64,000 nucleotides of DNA, from the NCBI GenBank assembly GCA_000004985.1, contig GG738852.1; one strand, written 5' to 3'. This stretch comes from Naegleria gruberi (taxonomy: Eukaryota). The notes below the pieces were generated by a model. It ran no database searches and was not told the origin of the DNA. It worked only from the letters and a program-made list of their open reading frames with translations. Of the stretch, positions 964 to 61,284 are shown piece after piece (position 1 is the first letter of the stretch; each line of letters begins with the position of its first letter). The position numbers and the translations under genes were made by a program.

Positions 964-3900
964 CATGCCTTCGTCCGTAAAACCAGAAATGATCCAATCA
1001 CAACAACAATATTTACCTGGAGGTGAAGAAATTGAACTCCAACATGTGTACACACCCTCCAATAATCCAAGCAAATCTCCAAGAGATCGAAATGACAGTG
1101 TCGCTTCCCATACTTTTGTAAATAACAATATTCCCTCATCGGATGATTTAAGGGAAGAACAAGTTGTTGATTTTAAAAAGAAGGAAAAAAAGAAAGACAA
1201 GAAAAAGGAAAGCGAGAGTGGATCAGATTCTTCTGAAGACTCAAAATCCAGTAAATCCGATAAAAAGGCAGCAAAAAAGAAAAAGAAGAAACTAAGAAAG
1301 AAGGTTGCTAAGGGTTATGAATTCATGATTGGTTTTTTGGATGGTTTTGGAGAAAGTGTTGATGGACCAGTAAGTAGTAATAATTAGTATTATACTAATA
1401 CAAGAATGATCGTGCATCATGTAGGGTTTAAGAAAGAAGACTTTCATGGGTGCATTCCTTACAACAATAATGAGAATTGCATGTATAATTTTAATAGCAT
1501 ACAGATTGTATGTGTTAATCATTGATAACAAATCTCAATCAACTGGATCTATTATTAATATAAATTATGCCAAGACATCAAATGTGAGATATATGGATGT
1601 TCCAACATTGCAGTTGAGATTATCAAATAATATTACATTTTATGAGAATGAGGAGGATGGGCCATCTCTTCAAAGAATTGATATCTTTGATAATTATGGT
1701 TATGAAAAGACATATTCAACAAGAAGAGACATCAAAGATGTGCAAGTGCCTGTTCCAGTTACCAAGTCAATTTTTGGATCTAGTACTGTTAATTTGAATA
1801 GCTTTTATCCTTCAACTTCACCACCTTATCAAGCTGTTGAAGTGGAAAGAGCTGCCAATTCATCTGCAACATTGTTTGGAACTGAACAAAATACAATTTC
1901 AGTTCTCGCCAGTATGATTGATGACCCTCTCAAGATTATTTATTTGATGAATGGAGTTTTTGATACTAGTTATGGGAGTTTGGATTTTGTTAATCACACT
2001 GTTCATTTATATTTGAGATTTGTTGATGACATGACTCATATTAAACCTTGTCAACTGCATGTTGGATTGGTCAACTCTGGAGTTTTCAAATTGATTCAAG
2101 ATACCACTACTGAAGGAAAGAGTTATATTAAGAAGGAGTTACAAAGTGTGGATGAAATTTACATGACAACTGAGGATTCATTGTGGGATATTAATTTGAC
2201 AAAAACACAAGGGGAGGGAACCACATCTTCAATTTCGACTAATGGTTTACCTTATAACGTTCTCTACCTGTCAAACGAATTCACAACAAATGAATTATAC
2301 TCTTTCTTAAATAAGAAAGATATTGGGGGTCTGTCAAGAGATGTTTCAAAATTATTTGTCTCAAGAAACATGACAGCCTCTTCCTTCATGGATTGGTCTT
2401 TCTTGATCAGCTATGTCAATAACTTTTTGTACACTGAAAATACTCTTTTATGTGATGATTTTGAAACTACCGTTACAGATATTTCAACTCTATATGATAA
2501 GACTACCATGAGTGTTAAAGATTTATTCCCACAAGAAATTAGAGTAATTGCTGATCTTGTCGATGGAACAACCGAGACAATGTATGCTAGAGTTCCAACT
2601 GATTCATTCTCACCAAAGTCTTCAGATTTTTACCTTCTTCTCTTTGGTATTACTGGTAGGGCAGAAACTGTCAGAGTGAATAGTTTTCAGCTTGCCACTG
2701 GTGTAGGAACAAATAGATACAACTACATCAAGATGAGCATGAAACGATCAGGTAATAGACCAGTCAACTTTAAAAATGTAGAACCTCAAGACACAATATT
2801 TGCCTCTACAGTTATTAATTATAGTGCGGTTCAACTTCCAAATACTCTTCCTCAAAAGTGGATAAGTCAAGGATTGTGGAATTGCCCAACATCCAAGTAT
2901 GGTGATGGTTTTTGTGATTGTGAATGTGGCTTTGTCAACGATACGCTCACAGTAAGAGATATTGATTGTAACAATATGTTACCAACTCTCTTTAGTGGTA
3001 ATAACTTAATGACAAAATTCCACAAAACCTCATGTGCCAGCAAGGGACAATTTTGCTCCTCACAAGGAACGTGTTTAGAGGCAAATTATTTGAAATCAAG
3101 TAAGCCATGTTATCATAGAGCATCAGTTTTGGGAGATTCACAAATTATTGGATATTTTGGAAGTAATTCAGATTATAACAACTCTGGAGCATCTAAGAAA
3201 TGTGTTTCTTGTCTTGGCGATACATTCCTTTCAGAGAAATCATCCTTATCCATTTCAAAGAGTAAATACATGTGTCAAATCACACCTATTGGATACATAT
3301 TTGGAAAGGATTTCTTTTCAATGAATAGTACTGGTTTAATTAGTGTTTGGAAAGAAGCTCCAGGACACTTGTATGGAAAATGTCTCAATATTCCAATTAG
3401 AGTTAAGGTTGGTGAGCTAATGTTTCCAACTATCAATCCTGGTGAATATTACACTCTTCAAGTGGGTGACGCTTCATCCAATCAATACTCACAAACAGCA
3501 TATTTGGCTAGTGTTGGACCAACATCTCGATCAATCAAAAAGATTTCTCCAAAAGGAGATTTAATTGGTGAATCTCAATACGACTTTCAAACAGTGTGTG
3601 TCTCAACAACAGAACCATCTTTGAGTTTCCTTGAAATGGCTGGTTTTGGTCAAGTCATTTCTTCTGTGTCTGCCTATTCAAATATTATCATTGTTGATCC
3701 AGTAACTATTAATTCACCTGATCCTAACAATACTTTGAGTTTTATTGGTCGTTTCCCTACAGCAGGCGCTTTCAAGGCAACTTTTTATTCTGGAGATGGT
3801 TACTCTGAAGGGATTACTGATACAGTAACTCATCAACCAATCTCTGTTGATGTTCTGGGTGTAACTGATGTTAATGGATATCAAATATTACAATTGAAAG

Positions 3901-22078: not shown

Positions 22079-24448
22079 ATGCCTCCAGCAACAGCTGTTT
22101 CAGCAAAAACAGAATCTGTGAGGGTCTGTGTCAGATGTAGGCCATTCAACACAAGAGAAACGGAAAGGAAATCCAAAAAATGTGTGGAAATAGATAAAAA
22201 CGCAAACCAGGTTATTTTAACAAAGAATGAAAATGAACCTCCAAAACCTCCATTCACCTTTGATGCTGTTTTTGACATGGAGTAAGTAGTAATTGAAATT
22301 GGCAGAATACTTAATTAAAATAGTGCAACACAGGGTGAAGTCTTTCAAGCAACTGCAAAACCGATCGTTGAGAGCGTCATGGATGGTTATAATGGAACAG
22401 TATTTTGTTATGGTCAAACAGGAAGTGGTACGTACTATTTAATTTAATACACTAATTTACTAATTTAATATTACAGGTAAGACACACACGTAAGTTTCTA
22501 ATAGTGAATTGAGGATTTAAATGAAAACAATAGTATGGAAGGTAAACCTGAACCATTGGAATTGAGAGGTCTTATTTTTAACTCAGTTTGTAGAGTATTT
22601 GAACTTATTGATGATGCACCAAAGAATATCACATACCTTGTAAATATATCAATGATCGAAATTTACAATGAAGAAATCAGAGATTTGCTAGTTCCTAAAT
22701 CTGAAGTTGGAAAAAAGCTCGATTTGAAAGAAACAAAGGACGGTATTACACTCAATGCCTCCTCAGTGTTGGTAAAAGAATTAAAGGAGGTCAATAAGAT
22801 TTTAGCTATCGGTTCTAAAAATAGAGTTAAGGGAGAAACTAATATGAATAAGGACTCAAGTAGATCTCACTCTATTTTCATGATCACAATTGATATGTTG
22901 GACGACACCAAACAAGAGAAGAAAGGTAAATTGAAACAAGGTAAATTGAACTTGGTAGATCTTGCTGGTTCTGAAAGAGCTGAAAAAACAGGTGCCACTG
23001 GTGACAGATTGAAGGAAGGTTGTAAAATTAACTTGTCTCTCAGTGCTCTTGGTAACGTTATTTCAGCTCTCGTTGAAGGTAAAGGAAAACACGTTCCATA
23101 CAGAGATTCCAAACTTACAAGACTTTTACAAGATTCACTTGGTGGTAATACAAAAACTGTAATGGTTGCAAACTTTTCACCAGCAGATTTCAACTATGAA
23201 GAAACTTTGTCCACATTGAGATATGCTGACAGAGCCAAACATATCCAAAACAAACCAAGAATCAATGAAGATCCAAAGGATGCTCTTCTTAGACAATTAC
23301 AAGAACAAATTGAGGCTTTGAGAGCTCAATTAACACAATCACAAGCTGTCTCTGCATCTTCAATGGTGGTGGGAAGCTCAACTACCACTGTTATTGTTAA
23401 CGATGCAAATGACAAACAAATCAACTTATCTTCGGCAGCTGTTAACGAAGAGCAATTACACAAACTCAAAGAAGAAAAGGAAAAGGAGAAACAACAAATT
23501 ATCGAGGCTATGAAGCAAAAATCAGACGAAGAAAAGAAGGGTTTGGTTGAGCAACAAAAGAGAATTGAAGAAGAAAAAGCTAAAATCGAACATGAACTTA
23601 AAATTCGTCATGATGCTCTTGAGCAAGAACGAAAGAATAAGGAAAAGATTCAAAACAAGCTTATGGAGCTCCAATCCAAATTGGTGCATGGTGGTCAGCT
23701 AGAACAAGTCAATGCTGAACAAAGAGAACAAATTTTAAAGCAAAAACAAGAAATTGAAGATAAGGAACGTGTAGCTATGCAATTAAAGAGAGAAATGGAA
23801 GAACAACAAGAAAAGAATATCATGATGGAAGAAAGATACAGCAGTATTCAAGAAGAAGTTCAGGTTAAGACTAAAAAGCTCAAAAAATTGTGGTCCAAGT
23901 TTGAAGCAGCAAAAGCTGAAATTTCGGATCTCCAAAAAGAATTCCAACAAGAAAGAGAAGATTACCTGTATACTATCAGACAACTTGAAAGAGATCTAAA
24001 GTTGAGAATGAAGATTATGGAACATTTCATTCCTCCTGAAGAGGTCAAGAAGATTGAGGAGAGGGCTGTCTGGGTTGATGAAGAAGATGAATGGAAGATT
24101 CAATCAGTTTTTTTGGCTGGTAATCATCAACGAAAAGGAAGACCTATTTCAGCTTCAGGACTAAAGAGAGCTGTAGCTTACTCTGTTATTGGAAACTCTA
24201 ATCCAAGATATAAGAGTGAAAATGTTATAGACCTCTCAATGGAAATGCCAGAAAGAACAACAGAAGACTACCGTTTCGCAAACGAACAACCACAAGTCCA
24301 CACAAGCTATGAATCCCAAGACTCTAACGCATCAATGAGAAAATCGAGACCTTCTTCATCTAATCCAGCTAAAACAAGCAGGCCAAAAACAGATAAATCA
24401 GATTCTGGTCAACCTTTCCCTGCCTCCAGAGGGTTAGTGAGGAAATAA
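22079..24448 (+). CDS. Kinesin-2 family motor subunit (KIF3/KRP85-like); 4 exons 22079..22281, 22324..22427, 22477..22489, 22534..24448
   Basis: The motor domain carries the P-loop [28 protein letters not shown] and [19 protein letters not shown]. The neck [29 protein letters not shown] is the kinesin-2 signature, and a coiled-coil stalk follows. Introns are GTAAGT…ATAG (42 nt), GTACGT…ACAG (49 nt) and GTAAGT…ATAG (44 nt), and the phases close exactly. Confidence 0.85.
22477..22489 (+). other. 13-nt microexon (GTAAGACACACAC) of the kinesin-2 gene encoding part of the P-loop (G-K-T-H-T)
   Basis: This exon is required to obtain the invariant GSGKTHTMEG Walker-A sequence. It is flanked by an AG acceptor (22475-76) and a GTAAGT donor (22490). 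Confidence 0.75.
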
Positions 24449-36732: not shown

Positions 36733-39700
36733 TTACATTTTTCTTCTTTCAACCACTGCAAAACTTGGGAATGATCTCTTCTTTAAACGTTCCAATTCTT
36801 CTGTGAGAATGTCGAGTTCTCGTTTTTGATCACGTGACAAATCTTGAAGTTTTCTTTCCCATCTAATTTCGGTCATACGCTTATCAGCAGCTTCTTTTTC
36901 TTTGGTGGCTGATTGAATTTGGTTGAGTTGAGCTCTTTCTTCAACAACTTGTTCGAAAATCTTGATTTGTCGAATGAGGTTAGTATTTTCTTCATATCTA
37001 ACATGCATTAAATCTTCCATCTTTTTAAGGATTCTCTTCTTTTCTTCGAGGGCAGTTTCAAGAGCAGCCTTAACATTTTCAATTTGTTTTTGGAGTTTAG
37101 CTCTTTCCATCTTTTTCTTCTCCTCTGTTCCTCCTCCACTCTTGATAATTTCTTGCATTTCCTTCTTTACTTTAAGCATTTGAAGCCTCTTGAATTTAAT
37201 TATCATTTCTTCAGTATCAAAAGCAATGAGGTCATTTTCCCATTGAATCTTTCTAATCTTCTTCTTTAAATCTTTCATCTTTGTCAATTGTTTAACAATT
37301 TCTTGACCCTGTTGTCTAATATTAGAGTTATGATCTTCAACAGTTGATCTAAATATAAGAATGGCATCAGAATAGTCAGTAACTACAGCTGCTTGTTCAA
37401 CTTCCACTTGACCTTGCTTGAATCTGAAAATCTTATCCATATTGTAAGACTCGGTTACAATCTTATCTCTGAACTTTGTCAGTTCAGTCATTTCCAAACT
37501 CATTATTGCATCCAAATCCTTATCTTCTTTGGTCAACTTGTCGAGACGGACTCTCATTTCGTCAAGTCTTTGTTGAGAATCTCTTACACTATTGTCCATT
37601 ACTACCTTTGCCTCTCTTATTTCCCAAAATCTTGCCCATAATTCATCATCAGCAATGTAGATTGGTCTTGATTTTTCTTCATCGAGAGGATCTTCTGGAG
37701 GAGCATTCTTTGCTTCTTCTGTTGCGTCTACATCAGCAAATGGATCTACAGAATTCAAAGCTAGGTCAATATTATCTTGATTTGTTTGAGGTTTAGATCT
37801 TGTTCTGAAAATCTTGTAAAGTTTTTCGAACATTTCACCAATTTTCATATTTGCTGCATGTTGCAACTTTTGGAATTCCATATTCATACTTGATTGAGTT
37901 TTTTGTTGCATCATCTTTTTACACATTTGTGAGAGAGCCTGTTGATTCGCTGGATAGAATACTTGAAGAATATCTCTTTGGAATTGAGTTTTGAACGATC
38001 TTTCCATTTGACGATCTTCTAGTATTATCTTTTCATGTTCAACCTTTTCAAGTTCAAACCTTTTGTGGTATTCCTGGACAGCACTAGAAGATTGAGCCTT
38101 CTTATTCTTCAATTCTTCTAAAATCTTTTCTAATTGCTTTTCTGCCTTTTCAAATTCTTCGTGTTGGATGATTGATTGAGAAAGTTTTACCATTTGGAGT
38201 TCAATTTCAAAAAGTGATTGGTCTGTTGATTGCTTTTTCAAGAATAGAATCTTCAAGTTTGTATCGAATTCTTGACAAAGATCAGCTATTTGTTGTTTGG
38301 CATTGTTGAGCTTGGCCTCCAATTGTTTAACCTTCTTAATACGCTCTTCTTCCTTTTGTTTCATTAAAGCTTCATATTCCTTGAGTTCTTTCATTTCTTG
38401 CTCTGTTAACTCAGATCTTTCCTTTCCCATTGCAGCTGGGACAGGTATTTCTTCTTCTTTAGTTTCGTGAGTGTCAAGATCTAATTTACCATCCATCATC
38501 ATTTGCAAGGCTCTTTGTGCTGTGTCCTTATCTTGCATTTTTGATGGATCTGATGCCTTTTGATTATCTTGCTTTTTAGACTTGTCGTCTGATCTCACAA
38601 ATTTAGTCTTTGGAAGCTCATCTTCGCTTACTTGGAGAATGTATTGTTCTGGCTTCTCTTGAGGTTTGAGTTTTACATCGAATATTTCAACAGGGATTGG
38701 TGTACCTGAACATCTGTTCAAATCTTTAGAAATGTCTAGAATTTTCTCGTTCATACTTTCAATCTTTCTGATAATTTGAGTCTTTTCTTCTCTCACCGTC
38801 TTAAATTCTCCATTAAATTGTCTTTTCATCTTGTCCACTTTTTCTTGAAGAAGGAAAATTTGGGTAACTTTTCTTTGTCTTGTGTATAGATCGGTATATG
38901 GATATAAAAGACCATCAAGATCGAGAATAAGGTTCTTTCTGATATTTTCCTTTGTTTTTCTTAATTCAGATTCATCCTCACTTCTGTTCTCTGAAATTTC
39001 ACTTGTTCTCGAGTTGGTTCTCTTGTTCGATTTTTCTTCATATTCTTCCTCATCTGGAACACCACCTTCGATATCGTTGGTAATGTATTCCTTTCTTCTG
39101 TTTACCAATGATATTTCTTCCATTCTTCTCATGAATGCAATCTTTTCAAGAATAACTTCTCTCTTTGGATCTCTCTTTCTAATCACATAATTTGGAACTT
39201 CCAGAAGAATTCCTTCCTTTTGGTATTCGGAAGCCATCTTGAAAGCAATAATAGTGGTTGCATGTTCTTCCATAGAGTCCCAACATTCCTTTTTGATTTT
39301 CTTTGCCAAGATGTCCTTCTTTACATTTTCTACACGCATAACTTCCTTTAGTTTCTCACATTCCTTTTCACCTTCTCTCTCCAGCATCTTTTTGTAATCT
39401 TCATCAATTATAAATTCGCTTTCAGATAATCTTTCATCCTCTGGAGCATTATCATTTTCAGCCTTAATTTCAAAAAATAGTTTTCTCAACTCGTCTATTT
39501 GAGAGAAAGCTTGCTCCTTCTTGGTTTCTTTCATCATTTGTTCAACCTTATTTTGATTGTCAGTCTTAATTTCCAAAATTGTTTTAAAATCTGGAGACTC
39601 TGATGTTGTCGAACACTTATCTTTTGGTTGAACTTTTGGAATGGCCATAACAAAACTGTTAGTGTTCATGTTTTCGGAAGGATCTAAGGAATAAACACAT

Positions 39701-42073
39701 ATACTTCCGTCATAGCCTGACGAGAAAATCGTAGTGGAATCGTATGAAAATGAAATACTTGAAACACCACCATTCATAGAATTGTGTAAATAGTATGATT
39801 CTGAGGCTCCTTCTTCTTCGTTCTGCTCAAAGAAGTTAGTATGTGCTATTCTGATTGAAACTACACCATCCTTTGCTCCAGTACATAGGTATCTTCCACA
39901 AGAACTCAAAACTACCCAAGCACCAGTTTTATAGTGGCACAAAGTTTCACTACTTGGAGTTACTACATTGTTACTCATTCCAGATTGTCTATCTTCAACG
40001 TTGAGATCGTAAATTTTGATTGTTTTGTCTTGTGACAAGGTGTAAATATGATTTGGATCGCTGCAATGATTGTCAATTACTCAAATGATACTAAAAACTT
40101 ACTCTTTGAAAGGAGCCATTCCGTAACATGGGTAATCCAGTTTCCACATATCTTTAGTAATATTTGTTAGTAAGATAACTTCTTCATATGTTACAGGAGG
40201 CTCTACAAGATACAAATCACCAACCTCAGTGGCCACATACAGAGATGTTTCATTAGACCAAGCGAGGGTTGAAATGTTGTGGTTAAATTTACAGAATCCA
40301 ATCAAGGACAAAAATTCATCATCATCTTCCATTGCCAAGTCAACGACAATATCCTCATTATTATTCTCAATCTCTGCATTACCCAAACGGAGGAATCCAA
40401 GAGTGGAATCGGCAAATGAGACGGCAACAAGTGTTCCATTTTTGCCTCCAATTTTAATGCTCGTAATAGCAGATGTCCTTAATCTGTGTGAATAAATTGC
40501 AATAGGTTGGTGTTTTTCATCAAATTCAAAGACTCTCAAAAAACCAATGGAAGAACCAACAAATAGCAGACCATTAGAGTATTGACCACATGAGAATAGT
40601 GCATTGAACTTTCTCTTGGCAATCAATGTATTGGTTTTGTAATTCCACACTCTAATAGTTCCATCCATACCATGACTCACAACAATGGATTTGTTTGTCT
40701 CTCCAGAGTCTTGTGGTTCCAATTGGTAAACACCTGTAACAGCTCCAATATGAGAATCGTAAACCTAAATAAATTGTCAAGAATAAATTCCATAATATAC
40801 TTACGTAACTCATGGATATTTCGTTCTTCATCAATTCCATATCAGTGATTGTATCTGTTTCGAATCCCTTAATATACACTCTAAAAATGGATCCATCCAC
40901 AGTGCCAGCTATTATATATTTGAAATTTCCTGAAATACAAACAGAAGAAATATCACCCAGTTTGTTGTTCAATGTTACAACTCTGGATGATATTCTTTCC
41001 TCATCATCAAATTTTTGTCCAGCATTATTAATTGTTGACATACGATAAACTTTCAAACATCCTTGATGTAATCCAGCAATACATGAGTGTCTACAAACTG
41101 CTATATTATACATTGCATCTCTAGAATCGTCTAAATCCAAAATAATACCATTTGAGTGAATATTTTCAAATCTTAAAAAGTCTCCATCATTCGTCACACA
41201 TAAAATGTCATTATTGACTCCCCATTCATGCCTATATAATTCTGTTGTTTTGATTTTTTCGTAAATGTTTTCTGAAACCTTCGGTTCTCTGGAAAATAAA
41301 GGTTAAAACAATTGAAATATTTTAGAAGAAACATACACTGGTATGATATCATATCCATCAACTATTGGATTTACCAGCCAGAATGCAAGATGAGCAAATC
41401 CACTCGAACATATTTGTAACTTGTTTCTTGGATTGAAACTGGCATACTTTGTAGTATTTGGTACTTGGGTTTGAATCAGACTTGAAAGTATATGTTAGCT
41501 CAGAATAATTTGAAGAAACCTACATCCTACTAGAGGCCCAATCCCAAACTGTGAGTTGATGGTCAGGAACTCCACTTAATGACAAAAGAAAACTACCATC
41601 CCTAGAGAAATCCAAATCCAAATAGTCAATTACTGATCCACCAGATAAAACTTTTAAAACCTCAAAAGTATTCAAATCATAAACTCTAATTTTTGGATGG
41701 GAATACGTATCTGCAACTGCAAAGACTCTTCTTTTCTTGTTGAAGGCAATTGCACTAATTCCTGCTGTGAGGTATAACTGTTTTGTAGTTGCCACAGATT
41801 GTCTCAAATCAAATGAGTCTTGTACAGATTTATCCTCACTAATATAGATATCGGGAACAAAGTAGTGTTCCTCCTTTGTTTCAATATTAATAAATCTCAC
41901 TCCCCTTCCACAAATAAATGCAATCCTTTGATCGTCCACTGAGTGAATCTTCCTTCCATCGTAACCGTAGGAAGATCTTGTTGTATTAAAGTACGCTCCA
42001 AGTTAGACTGATGATAGATAATAAATTATTGCACTTACATCATCTCACTGCTGATAAAGTCTTGGTTAGGCAT
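36733..42073 (-). CDS. CFAP43/CFAP44-like ciliary protein (N-terminal WD40 propellers + ~1000-aa coiled-coil tail); 6 exons 42073..42039, 41976..41524, 41480..41337, 41288..40805, 40764..40103, 40060..36733
   Basis: Four consecutive minus-strand ORFs with WD-repeat character (…GHxxxVxxIxF…D…IxVWD…) and the 1101-aa coiled-coil ORF join through canonical short introns: GTAAGT/GTAGGT/GTATGT donors, 40-62 nt, all phases closing, about 1700 aa in total. The WD-propeller + long coiled-coil architecture and size match CFAP43/44 (an inference; not alignable by eye). The acceptor of intron 1 is ambiguous (41977 or 41953). Confidence 0.5.
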
Positions 42074-59555: not shown

Positions 59556-60220
59556 ATGGTAGTTCACTCGATATACGTGCTGAACAAGGCTGGTGGTTTG
59601 ATTTATCAAAGGGTAAGTGGTGATGATCAACATGTTGATCAAGAAAAATTATAATTAATTGGATCGGAATGACGTGATCACGATGTGATGTTGCGGATTT
59701 AAATATTAAATTTTAATAGGATTTTGGAAAATTCTCAGAGTTTGTAAAAATTGAAAAGGAGAATGTTGAATTATTAAAAACAAATCCAACAGGTGTGATT
59801 CCACAAAACAAATATGATGGAAAATTTATTAAACCTTTCGGAAATCAATATTTGACATTGGCATCAACATTTCACGGGCTTCATGCCATTTCAAAAGAAT
59901 TAATTCCACCACATGCACGTGTTAATCCAGAAGAGGAAAATGGTGGTATTGAAGTACTTGATTGTGGAACTTACAAATTATTTTGCCATGCTGCAACAAC
60001 AGGAACTAAATTCTTTTATTTATTTGATGCCAAGAAATTCTCCAATGATGGTGTCAGTACCATGGAAGATTGTTGTAAATGGGTTTACCAATGTTATGTA
60101 GATTATGTAATGAAGAATCCTTTTTATGAATTGGAAATGCCAATCAAATGTTCTCTATTTGATGAACATTTAGATAAATACATGACAAATTTGAACTCGA
60201 CCCTCAAGAAGGCACCATAA
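59556..60220 (+). CDS. TRAPPC4: TRAPP complex subunit 4 (synbindin/Trs23); 2 exons 59556..59612, 59720..60220
   Basis: Exon 1 MVVHSIYVLNKAGGLIYQR matches MAIFSVYVVNKAGGLIYQ. Exon 2 …NQYLTLASTFHGLHAIS…GGIEVLDCGTYKLFCHAATTGTKFFYL…KNPFYELEMPIKCSLFDEHL matches the synbindin longin core. The intron is GTAAGT…AATAG, 107 nt, phase 0. Confidence 0.85.
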
Positions 60221-60272: not shown

Positions 60273-60943
60273 TTAAAGCATAACAATATCACCAGGTTTC
60301 AACTTGGTTTTTTCTTGTTTTTTCTTTTCAATTTGCTTTCTTCTAGCTTCATCTACTTTTGATGTAAATTCATACCATGTACTCATATCATCTGCTGTTT
60401 TAGATTCCCTCTTCCTTTCTTCTTTCTTCTCTTTAGGTGTCACTGATGCAATATTGTTTTGTATAATTTCAAGAATTTCTAAAATTTGATCTTCAGAATA
60501 TCTAGATTCACAATTTTCAATAATCTTTGATAAATATTAAATATATTTTAGTATTAGAAGATAACTCACAGAGTGAATTTCCACAAGTGATGATGGTGGA
60601 CTATTAATTACTAACATCTTTTCCGATCGTGTCAATGAGAATGGTCCCAAATCCTTTAATAAATTCCTAATAGATTCCTCATTTTGATTGTTAACTTTAG
60701 TTTGTTTATCAAAATAATATAATAATCTACATTGAAAATCTAGCAGTGGATCCCTAAATCTTTTAAAATTTGATTCCCGAACTCCTAGTTTTTCTTTTCT
60801 ATTTTCAAAATGTTGTTCAACAATTTCTTTCACTTCAAAATTTGTCAATGGATATTCTTCGACTTTTAATCTGTTATTTATTTATGTTCCGAAATTATTG
60901 TTATTATTTTATTCCTCTCTGGTGCTGCTACGTACACTTTCAT
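60273..60943 (-). CDS. RPC9: Rpb4/RPC9-family RNA polymerase subunit (most like Pol III RPC9/CGRP-RCP); 3 exons 60943..60936, 60870..60570, 60524..60273
   Basis: …LTNFEVKEIVEQHFENRKE…FSLTRSEKMLVINSPPSSLVEIHS|IIENCESRYSEDQILEILEIIQNNI… matches the RPC9 blocks (LSNYEV…LTKAEKLQLLN…VEIQ…EERLTEEQIE). Introns are GTACGT…AACAG (65 nt) and GTGAGT…CAAAG (45 nt). An 8-nt first exon ATGAAAGT is inferred. Confidence 0.6.
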
Positions 60944-61284
60944 TTTTTATTTGAATTTATAAAATTCAAAAATAACGTTAAATTAAAGTTTAATATTGAA
61001 ATTGCACAATTTACAACAACATTGCCAAGTGATTGGTGCTAATAGAGAAATGAATGGAATTACAATTTTATTTGGGAATTTACCAATGAATAATTGGATA
61101 ATCCCATAAATCGATTAGCCCATTGCTAATTTCGTCTCCGATTTGAGTTGTTAGTTGTTGTTCAATCATGTAAATGATTGTAGGATGGTTGTCCTAATGA
61201 TTTACAAGGAATTCATAAGATAAGGATAAATTCCAAAGAGTTCTTCTTTTGAAATTCAATCTGAATTAAATTCAATTCACCTTT

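What the first reader, a model, noticed from the sequence alone, without database searches (positions are those of the whole stretch)
60273..60943. Rpb4/RPC9-family gene with an inferred 8-nt first exon (ATGAAAGT)
The main exon lacks any in-frame ATG and begins immediately after an AACAG acceptor. The only upstream ATG that splices in phase is 60943, followed two codons later by a GTACGT donor. GTACGT is a donor type used elsewhere in this window, at 22428 and 49003. A start-codon microexon of 8 nt would be a striking gene-structure feature.
Basis: inference. Interest (0 to 1): 0.5.

Follow-up and report, generated by a model that had tools for sequence, protein, structure and literature searches.

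The report
Naegleria RPC9 gene, 8-base coding first exon
The Naegleria gruberi gene for a small RNA polymerase III subunit (RPC9) almost certainly has only its start codon plus five bases ahead of a 65-base intron; this gene appears to be missing from the protein collections searched, but the layout is ordinary for RPC9 genes, being shared with sister amoebae and a fish.

Summary
On the minus strand, ATGAAAGT (60943-60936) is followed by a GTACGT donor. A 65-nt intron ends in AACAG at 60871. Splicing joins the ATG in frame to a 301-nt exon, and a second 45-nt intron leads to the last exon. The 186-aa product (MKVLKVEEYPLTNFEV...) is RPC9, the RNA polymerase III stalk subunit (Pfam RNA_pol_Rpb4, E=1e-18). 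Yeast and fission-yeast RPC9 also begin MKVL.

The window is Naegleria gruberi. The same 8-nt coding first exon occurs in N. fowleri, N. lovaniensis, Willaertia magna and a metagenomic relative. Their introns differ in length (52-219 nt) and share little sequence. A paddlefish RPC9 gene splits at the same base (ATGGAAGT|GTGAGC). Twenty-seven probably fungal metagenome loci split two bases earlier (ATGGAG|GT).

- The exon is 5'UTR plus 8 coding bases, not a physical 8-nt microexon.
- Exon 2 does contain an in-frame ATG, at codon 85.
- Other in-phase ATG/GT pairs exist upstream, but none has a consensus donor.

No N. gruberi RPC9 protein is in the collections searched, so the gene looks unannotated there. 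No transcript data were available. Verdict: real, correctly interpreted, ordinary for this family; low to moderate interest.

The parts
60936..60943 (-). Coding part of exon 1: ATGAAAGT (Met, Lys and the first two bases of Val3). The exon also includes a 5'UTR of unknown length.
   Evidence: Sequence. An in-frame TAA lies two codons upstream. Exon 1 is ATGAAAGT in N. fowleri and ATGAAAAT in N. lovaniensis, W. magna and L004, always 8 nt. This is the only in-phase ATG with a GTRNGT donor in the 413 nt upstream of the acceptor; 2.1% of shuffles give one.
60871..60935 (-). Intron 1: 65 nt, phase 2 (inside codon 3), GTACGT...AACAG.
   Evidence: It contains the TAA (60884-60882) that closes the exon-2 frame. 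The first AG downstream of the putative branch site is the proposed acceptor. The orthologous introns (52, 66, 211 and 219 nt) sit at the same base and align poorly.
60900..60906 (-). Putative branch-point motif TAATAAC, with the branch A at about 60901, 30 nt upstream of the 3' splice site.
   Evidence: Inference from the sequence only, by analogy with yTAAy motifs in the other short introns read here. Not tested.
60570..60870 (-). Exon 2: 301 nt, from the last base of codon 3 through Ser103 (…LVEIHS).
   Evidence: It is exactly 301 nt in N. gruberi, N. fowleri, N. lovaniensis and L004. Third-codon-position differences dominate (44 against 22 and 10 for N. gruberi versus N. fowleri). The first in-frame ATG is codon 85 (60617-60615).
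60525..60569 (-). Intron 2: 45 nt, phase 0, GTGAGT...CAAAG.
   Evidence: The position after EIHS is conserved in all five heterolobosean loci, which have GTATGT donors there.
60273..60524 (-). Exon 3: 252 nt including the TAA stop at 60275-60273. It encodes the end of the Rpb4-like domain and a Lys/Glu-rich tail.
60944..61283 (-). Upstream spacer that should hold the promoter and 5'UTR. It ends in the A-rich stretch TCAAATAAAAA just before the ATG.
   Evidence: TCAAATAAA(AA)ATGAAA is also present in L004 and W. magna. No AG occurs in the roughly 60 nt before the ATG, read by eye. The transcription start is unknown.

Best explanation
This is the Naegleria gruberi gene for RPC9 (yeast Rpc17/C17, human CRCP/POLR3I), the Rpb4-like subunit of the RNA polymerase III stalk. 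It has three coding exons on the minus strand.

The proposed mechanism is as follows.
- Transcription starts somewhere in the roughly 340-nt spacer upstream of 60943. This step is inferred.
- Exon 1 is the 5'UTR plus ATGAAAGT.
- A U2-type spliceosome removes the 65-nt GTACGT...AACAG intron and joins GT to A at 60870. That completes Val3 and places the ATG in frame with the 301-nt exon 2.
- A second, 45-nt intron is removed before exon 3.
- The product is a 186-aa protein beginning MKVLKVEEYPLTNFEV.

Splicing is obligatory. The unspliced RNA would read MKVYVAAPERNKIITIISEHK and then stop, and exon 2 has no start codon of its own before codon 85.

A start-proximal intron is a family trait of RPC9 genes rather than a Naegleria oddity. 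The split falls at the same base in Willaertia and in a vertebrate, and two bases earlier in probably fungal loci.
For: **Organism.** A window ORF is 100% identical over 444 aa to N. gruberi NAEGRDRAFT_57153.

**Family.** Pfam RNA_pol_Rpb4 E=1.1e-18. Solved-structure hits are RPC9 of yeast, human and S. pombe at about 1e-9, against archaeal Rpo4 at only 0.056.

**Junction, comparative evidence.**
- N. fowleri ATGAAAGT|GTAGGT, 219-nt intron.
- N. lovaniensis ATGAAAAT|GTAGGT, 211-nt intron.
- Metagenome contig L004 ATGAAAAT|GTAGGT, 52-nt intron.
- W. magna ATGAAAAT|GTAAGT, 66-nt intron.
- The annotated gene spans of the three named species equal CDS plus these two introns exactly.
- The introns align poorly apart from the splice signals.

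**Coding constraint.** It runs from the first codon of exon 2, shown by an excess of third-position and synonymous differences.

**N-terminus.** S. pombe Rpc9 aligns from residue 1, MKVLEARDAYLTNAEV. S. cerevisiae Rpc17 begins MKVLEERNAF. Of 138 new RPC9 representatives, 80 begin M[KERQ][VIL].

**Chance.** 2.1% of shuffles give any in-phase consensus donor.

**Wider family.** Paddlefish has ATGGAAGT|GTGAGC...TTTTTCAG|GAAGGAT, giving MEV|KDTN. Twenty-seven metagenome loci have ATGGAG|GT...AG|GTN.
Against: - No RNA evidence was available for N. gruberi: no cDNA, EST or RNA-seq could be queried.
- The transcription start is unknown, so the true size of exon 1 is unknown.
- The branch-site match (TAATAAC) is weak and inferred.
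- A TATAAAT lies only about 15-21 nt before the ATG. If it were a functional TATA box, the start site could fall at or beyond the ATG. Such strings are common by chance in sequence with about 30% G+C.
- The N. fowleri, N. lovaniensis and W. magna models are annotation-pipeline predictions. I did not establish whether transcripts back them at this locus.
Confidence: 0.92

Rival explanations
1. There is no coding upstream exon. Translation starts inside exon 2, either at a non-AUG codon near its 5' end or at Met88 (ATG 60617-60615).
For: Exon 2 does contain an in-frame ATG at codon 85. No transcript data exclude this.
Against: - A start at Met88 would delete about half of the Rpb4-like domain, which Pfam matches over residues 11-126.
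- Codons 4-87 are under purifying selection across four loci.
- The MK[VI] tripeptide and its donor are conserved in five heterolobosean loci.
- MKVL matches the true N-terminus of yeast and S. pombe RPC9.
Confidence: 0.03
2. A different upstream ATG and donor supply the first exon, for example ATG 61022 with GTAAAT at 61014 or GTTGTA at 61017, or ATG 61107 with GTAATT at 61063.
For: These pairs splice in phase to 60870 without a stop.
Against: - None has G at +5 and T at +6. All 12 other heterolobosean introns read here have both.
- They would give N-termini (MLLLKV…, MGLSNYSLV…) with no counterpart in any orthologue.
- They are not conserved, and they would have to skip a consensus donor placed closer to the acceptor.
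Confidence: 0.02
3. The locus is a decaying or silent copy, which would explain its absence from the protein collections, and the apparent splice signals are relics.
For: No N. gruberi RPC9 protein was found in the 5.8-billion-cluster or 15-billion-sequence collections.
Against: - The spliced frame is intact over 186 codons, with both introns at the conserved positions.
- The substitution pattern against the orthologues is that of a constrained coding sequence.
- RPC9 is a core Pol III subunit, and no other N. gruberi copy turned up in the protein searches.
- A gene caller missing an 8-nt coding first exon is a simpler reason for the absence.
Confidence: 0.02

Closest known systems
RPC9 genes of Naegleria fowleri (FDP41_010280), N. 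lovaniensis (C9374_008830) and Willaertia magna (ABK040_011906)
   Same: Orthologues at 49-64% amino-acid identity. All have an 8-nt coding first exon (ATGAAAGT or ATGAAAAT), a phase-2 intron in codon 3 and a second intron after EIHS. Exon 2 is 301 nt in the two Naegleria species. Their deposited annotations already model this structure.
   Different: The donor is GTACGT here, against GTAGGT or GTAAGT. Intron 1 is 65 nt here, against 219, 211 and 66 nt. The C-terminal tail differs in length and sequence. The N. gruberi gene itself has no protein entry in the collections searched.
Vertebrate RPC9 gene (CRCP/POLR3I), read directly in paddlefish Polyodon spathula
   Same: Exon 1 carries exactly 8 coding nt (ATGGAAGT). 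The intron interrupts codon 3 (Val) after its second base, the same position and phase as in Naegleria. Other vertebrate gene models begin 'FCRKDANAAML' or 'FSRKDGNAALL', which fits read-through of the 3' end of that intron.
   Different: The intron is 784 nt and has a long pyrimidine tract. A further intron follows after SNYE. Protein identity is only about 28%. Whether the shared position is inherited or convergent was not resolved.
RPC9 loci from soil and root metagenomes, probably fungal
   Same: They have a start-proximal intron with a tiny coding first exon, and the product again begins M-E-[VI].
   Different: The coding first exon is 6 nt (ATGGAG or ATGAAG) and the intron is phase 0, between codons 2 and 3. 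That is two bases 5' of the Naegleria position. Introns are 47-65 nt, and one has a GC donor (L056). 'Fungal' is a guess from the best-matching queries, which include proteins of Jimgerdemannia, Lunasporangiospora and Neolecta.
Start-codon introns described by Nielsen and Wernersson 2006 (PMC1626468)
   Same: This is a known class: an excess of introns at the very start of the CDS in short, lysine-rich, conserved proteins across vertebrates, arthropods, fungi and plants (abstract).
   Different: That class is phase 0, directly after the ATG. The intron here is phase 2, after 8 nt. RPC9 is not a ribosomal protein.
Schizosaccharomyces cryophilus Rpc17
   Same: Orthologue with an MKIL N-terminus and the same domain.
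   Different: Intronless: the 390-nt gene span equals 129 codons plus the stop.

Membership tests
RPC9 / Rpc17 / CRCP (Pol III stalk subunit, Rpb4-like) | Rpb4-type domain (Pfam PF03874) above the curated cut-off | tested here: met
   68 bits against a cut-off of 25.6, E=1.1e-18, residues 11-126.
RPC9 / Rpc17 / CRCP (Pol III stalk subunit, Rpb4-like) | Closer to the Pol III paralogue than to Rpb4, Rpa14 or archaeal Rpo4 | tested here: met
   Solved-structure hits are RPC9 of S. cerevisiae, human and S. pombe (E 8e-10 to 6e-9). Archaeal Rpo4 scores 0.056, and no Rpb4 chain appears below E=1. The closest homologues are named RPC9 by UniRef.
RPC9 / Rpc17 / CRCP (Pol III stalk subunit, Rpb4-like) | Family-typical N-terminus M-[KE]-[VI] followed by an L[ST]N[YF]EV motif | tested here: met
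   The product begins MKVLKVEEYPLTNFEV. This compares with S. pombe MKVLEARDAYLTNAEV, S. cerevisiae MKVLEERNAFLSDYEV and 80 of 138 representatives.
RPC9 / Rpc17 / CRCP (Pol III stalk subunit, Rpb4-like) | Forms the stalk heterodimer with RPC8 (C25) in Pol III | not testable with these tools
   Needs biochemistry or a co-fold. Not attempted.
U2-type spliceosomal GT-AG intron | GT...AG boundaries with a 5' splice site matching the local consensus (G at +5, T at +6) | tested here: met
   The intron runs GTACGT...AACAG. All other heterolobosean RPC9 introns and the two kinesin introns in the window fit GTRNGT.
U2-type spliceosomal GT-AG intron | Recognisable branch site 15-40 nt upstream of the acceptor | tested here: inconclusive
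   TAATAAC lies 30 nt upstream. That is a weak match, and no Naegleria branch-site consensus was available.
U2-type spliceosomal GT-AG intron | Position conserved in orthologues while the intron sequence and length are free to vary | tested here: met
   Five heterolobosean loci share the same base, with introns of 52-219 nt that align poorly.
U2-type spliceosomal GT-AG intron | Removed from the mature mRNA | not testable with these tools
   No N. gruberi transcript data were reachable. The spliced protein is absent from the collections, which include run assemblies.
Microexon in the strict sense (very short internal exon flanked by two introns) | The exon is bounded by an acceptor on its 5' side, so the whole exon is only a few nt long | tested here: not met
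   No AG occurs in the roughly 60 nt before the ATG (read by eye), so the exon must extend upstream as 5'UTR. Only its coding part is 8 nt. By contrast, a true 13-nt internal microexon sits at 22477-22489.

The most novel reading that the evidence does not exclude
The phase-2 intron after base 8 of RPC9 could be an ancestral eukaryotic intron. On this reading it was retained at the same base in Heterolobosea and vertebrates, shifted by two bases or regained at the built-in ATG-GAG|GT protosplice site in fungi, and lost in fission yeast. It might persist because obligatory splicing next to the start codon is used to control the dosage of this Pol III stalk subunit: retention gives a 21-codon dead-end ORF.
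Probability: 0.25. Interest if true: 0.4.

Novelty: new member of a known kind. Interest (0 to 1): 0.25.

Why it matters
**Practical.** N. gruberi appears to lack an annotated RPC9, a core Pol III subunit. The likely reason is that a gene caller could not model a start codon stranded on 8 coding bases. Inventories of 'missing' polymerase subunits in this reference excavate should take that into account, and the coordinates given here allow the model to be added.

**Conceptual.** The gain is small. Start-proximal introns are a known class. Csuros et al. 2011 (PMC3174169) already report that 30-50% of N. gruberi intron positions are shared with other supergroups. An RPC9 intron position shared with a vertebrate is therefore one more example, not a surprise.

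Tried and rejected
**Look-ups of N. gruberi gene positions.**
- Three unspliced N. gruberi ORFs, and the N. gruberi protein P0005 itself, are not in that index. The N. gruberi annotation around the locus therefore could not be inspected directly.

**Metagenome scans.**
- A scan with a broad RPC9 alignment failed because no stretch was conserved enough.
- A scan with the heterolobosean alignment found nothing.
- A third alignment, of fungal and animal representatives, worked.

**Other dead ends.**
- The look-up of primate RPC9 isoform X2 was not on record, so paddlefish was used instead.
- Rfam scans of the locus and of the long N. fowleri intron found no credible RNA family. The only hit was an 18-bit SCARNA7 match against a 65-bit threshold, inside a coding exon. 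A hosted snoRNA is therefore not supported.
- Aligning the four Naegleria-type copies of intron 1 showed only splice signals and a few short shared strings.
- A window-wide scan for other very short first coding exons gave only unverified or false candidates. For example 'MAPFK' at 40119 is internal to a multi-exon WD-repeat gene. I make no claim about how common the feature is in N. gruberi.
- The Fritz-Laylin 2010 genome paper is not held, so no published N. gruberi splice-site consensus could be cited.
- Structure prediction was not run, because the domain assignment was already unambiguous.

Full report
**1. What is in the sequence**

Read on the minus strand, the region contains ...TTCAAATAAAAA ATGAAAGT GTACGTAGCAGC...AAATAACAG ATTAAAAGTCGAAGAATATCC....

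- The ATG is at 60943-60941.
- The donor GTACGT starts at 60935.
- The intron is 65 nt (60935-60871).
- Exon 2 starts at 60870.

Joining ATGAAAGT to ATTAAAAGTC gives ATG AAA GTA TTA AAA GTC, which reads M K V L K V. Exon 2 is 301 nt (60870-60570). A second intron of 45 nt, GTGAGT...CAAAG (60569-60525), follows. Exon 3 runs to the TAA at 60275-60273. The spliced CDS is 561 nt and encodes 186 aa.

The frame of exon 2 is closed by a TAA inside intron 1 (60884-60882). Its first in-frame ATG is codon 85 (60617-60615). In the frame of the 60943 ATG a TAA lies two codons upstream. Without splicing, the ATG opens only a 21-codon ORF, MKVYVAAPERNKIITIISEHK*.

**2. Is it more than chance?**

If any GT may serve as a donor, five other upstream ATG/GT pairs also splice in phase to 60870. 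None of those pairs has G at +5 and T at +6.

If the donor must match GTRNGT, the real 413-nt upstream stretch has exactly one in-phase candidate, the proposed one. Only 2.1% of 5000 dinucleotide-preserving shuffles yield any.

**3. What the gene is, and in which organism**

The product matches Pfam RNA_pol_Rpb4 (68 bits, E=1.1e-18). Among solved structures it matches RPC9 of S. cerevisiae, human and S. pombe (E about 1e-9). Archaeal Rpo4 is a marginal hit and Rpb4 does not appear. It is therefore the Pol III stalk subunit RPC9 (C17, CRCP).

A neighbouring window ORF is 100% identical over 444 aa to N. gruberi NAEGRDRAFT_57153. The window is Naegleria gruberi.

Neighbours of the gene:
- A convergent Sybindin-like TRAPP subunit ORF (59795-60220, plus strand) ends 52 nt from the RPC9 stop.
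- A CCHC zinc-knuckle protein lies upstream on the same strand.

**4. Comparative test of the junction**

The closest proteins are N. fowleri FDP41_010280 and N. lovaniensis C9374_008830, at 63-64% identity in the multiple alignment. They begin MKVLKVDEYPL and MKILKVDEYPL. A profile search added Willaertia magna ABK040_011906, which begins MKILKTEEFSL.

| Locus | Exon 1 and donor | Intron 1 |
|---|---|---|
| N. fowleri | ATGAAAGT\|GTAGGT | 219 nt |
| N. lovaniensis | ATGAAAAT\|GTAGGT | 211 nt |
| W. magna | ATGAAAAT\|GTAAGT | 66 nt |
| Metagenome contig L004 (a further relative) | ATGAAAAT\|GTAGGT | 52 nt |

For the three annotated species, the gene span equals CDS plus these two introns exactly. 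Their deposited models therefore already contain the 8-nt coding exon.

Further points from the comparison:
- Exon 2 is 301 nt in N. gruberi, N. fowleri, N. lovaniensis and L004.
- In each of them the first in-frame Met of exon 2 is codon 85, and the exon-2 frame has no in-frame ATG upstream of the acceptor.
- Differences between species pile up at third codon positions (44 against 22 and 10 for N. gruberi versus N. fowleri). Synonymous changes outnumber replacements in N. gruberi versus N. fowleri and N. lovaniensis from the first codons of exon 2.
- The introns themselves align poorly.

This is the pattern expected of a real, conserved splice junction.

**5. The N-terminus it creates**

S. 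pombe Rpc9 aligns to the model from residue 1: MKVLEARDAYLTNAEV against MKVLKVEEYPLTNFEV. S. cerevisiae Rpc17 begins MKVLEERNAFLSDYEV.

A profile search of 1.84 billion representatives found 1890 relatives. Of the 138 new ones listed, 80 begin M[KERQ][VIL]. The three residues supplied by the tiny exon are thus the canonical start of the family.

**6. Beyond Heterolobosea**

- *Paddlefish.* In RPC9 (P0097, L009) the CDS starts ATGGAAGT|GTGAGC. A 784-nt intron ends TTTTTCAG. Exon 2 starts GAAGGATACG, giving M E V|K D T N. This is the same 8 nt, codon and phase as in Naegleria.
- *Other vertebrates.* Several listed gene models start at profile position 4 or begin 'FCRKDANAAML'. That is what reading through the end of this intron would give.
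- *S. cryophilus.* Rpc17 is intronless.
- *Metagenome loci.* A scan returned 80 eukaryotic RPC9 loci, of which 79 gave an N-terminal match and could be classified:
  - 51 have a contiguous ATG-x-V. They are either intronless there or are cDNA-derived.
  - 27 have ATGGAG|GT (or ATGAAG or ATGCAG), then 47-65 nt, then AG|GTN. That is a 6-nt coding first exon with a phase-0 intron, two bases 5' of the Naegleria site.
  - One (L039) looks like the 8-nt type (ATGGAGAT|GTAATG) by eye. The script picked a different, weaker candidate for it.
- *Taxonomy of the 27 loci.* Their best-matching queries include proteins of early-diverging fungi and of Neolecta. They are probably fungal, but that is a guess.

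The family consensus ATG-GAG-GTN contains an AG|GT protosplice site. Both ancient inheritance with a small shift and repeated gain are therefore plausible, and I could not decide between them. Csuros et al. 2011 report that 30-50% of N. gruberi intron positions are shared with other supergroups (PMC3174169). A shared position is thus unremarkable.

**7. Corrections to the interpretation**

The feature is not an 8-nt exon. It is a first exon whose coding part is 8 nt. No AG occurs in the roughly 60 nt before the ATG (read by eye), so no acceptor can bound it there. The 5'UTR, of unknown length, belongs to the exon.

Very short first coding exons are a described class. Nielsen and Wernersson 2006 found an excess of phase-0 introns right after the ATG in short, lysine-rich, conserved proteins (PMC1626468).

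**8. Annotation status**

Three searches failed to find an N. gruberi RPC9:
- the single-sequence search;
- the profile search;
- an exact look-up of the predicted protein, and of a Met88-start variant, among about 15 billion sequences.

N. gruberi proteins are in that collection. The gene therefore appears to be unannotated in N. gruberi, most simply because of the stranded start codon. I could not view the N. gruberi gene table directly.

**9. What is shown and what is inferred**

Shown:
- the sequence features and phase;
- the family assignment;
- conservation of the exon-intron structure in five heterolobosean loci and one vertebrate;
- coding constraint on exon 2;
- the N-terminal match to solved RPC9 proteins.

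Inferred:
- that the junction is used in N. gruberi mRNA;
- the branch site (TAATAAC, 60906-60900);
- the transcription start;
- any regulatory role of the intron.

**10. Verdict**

The structure is ordinary for RPC9 genes and already modelled in sister species. The new elements are an apparently missing gene model in N. gruberi and a modest note on intron-position conservation. Interest 0.25.

Noticed in passing
window 22428-22533 (+): A true 13-nt internal microexon, GTAAGACACACAC (22477-22489), sits in a kinesin gene. It is flanked by a 49-nt GTACGT...ACAG intron and a 44-nt GTAAGT...ATAG intron. Splicing rebuilds the P-loop GQTGSGKTHTMEG. The spliced translation hits the Pfam Kinesin motor domain at E=4e-106.
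   Followed up: partly
L046-L089 (metagenome loci), e.g. L055 616-687: Twenty-seven RPC9 loci, probably fungal, have a 6-nt coding first exon (ATGGAG|GT...) with a 47-65-nt phase-0 intron. L056 appears to use a GC donor (ATGGAG|GCAAGC). L039 may be an 8-nt phase-2 case (ATGGAGAT|GTAATG) from an unidentified eukaryote.
   Followed up: partly
proteins P0141, P0152, P0150, P0144 and others: Many vertebrate RPC9 entries in public collections begin with translated intron (FCRKD..., FSRKD...), with alternative N-terminal extensions, or at the internal Met of MLSNYEV. The tiny first coding exon seems to be mis-modelled often there too.
   Followed up: no
window 60885-60893 (-); L001 about 3195-3205; L004 about 63-72; L002 about 3201-3210: A short string, (C)TTCGGAA(C/T), recurs near the 3' end of intron 1 in N. 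gruberi, N. fowleri and L004 (CTCGGAAT). N. lovaniensis has CTTCCGGAC. N. gruberi also shares AATAATAACAAT with N. lovaniensis and AACAATAATTT with N. fowleri. These could be chance matches in AT-rich sequence or small conserved intron elements.
   Followed up: no
window 59795-60220 (+): A Sybindin-like TRAPP subunit ORF (Pfam Sybindin E=6e-29) converges on RPC9 and ends 52 nt from its stop. The ORF as listed starts with GTG and matches the profile only from position 30, so it probably has its own upstream coding exon.
   Followed up: no
window about 39960-40820 (-): The 1101-aa ORF (36733-40038) seems to be the last part of a multi-exon WD-repeat gene with 40-42-nt GTAAGT introns, with candidate donors at 40804 and 40102. 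The 'MAPFK' at 40119 is internal, not a start.
   Followed up: no
This was read by eye only, and the gene was not identified.
   Followed up: no
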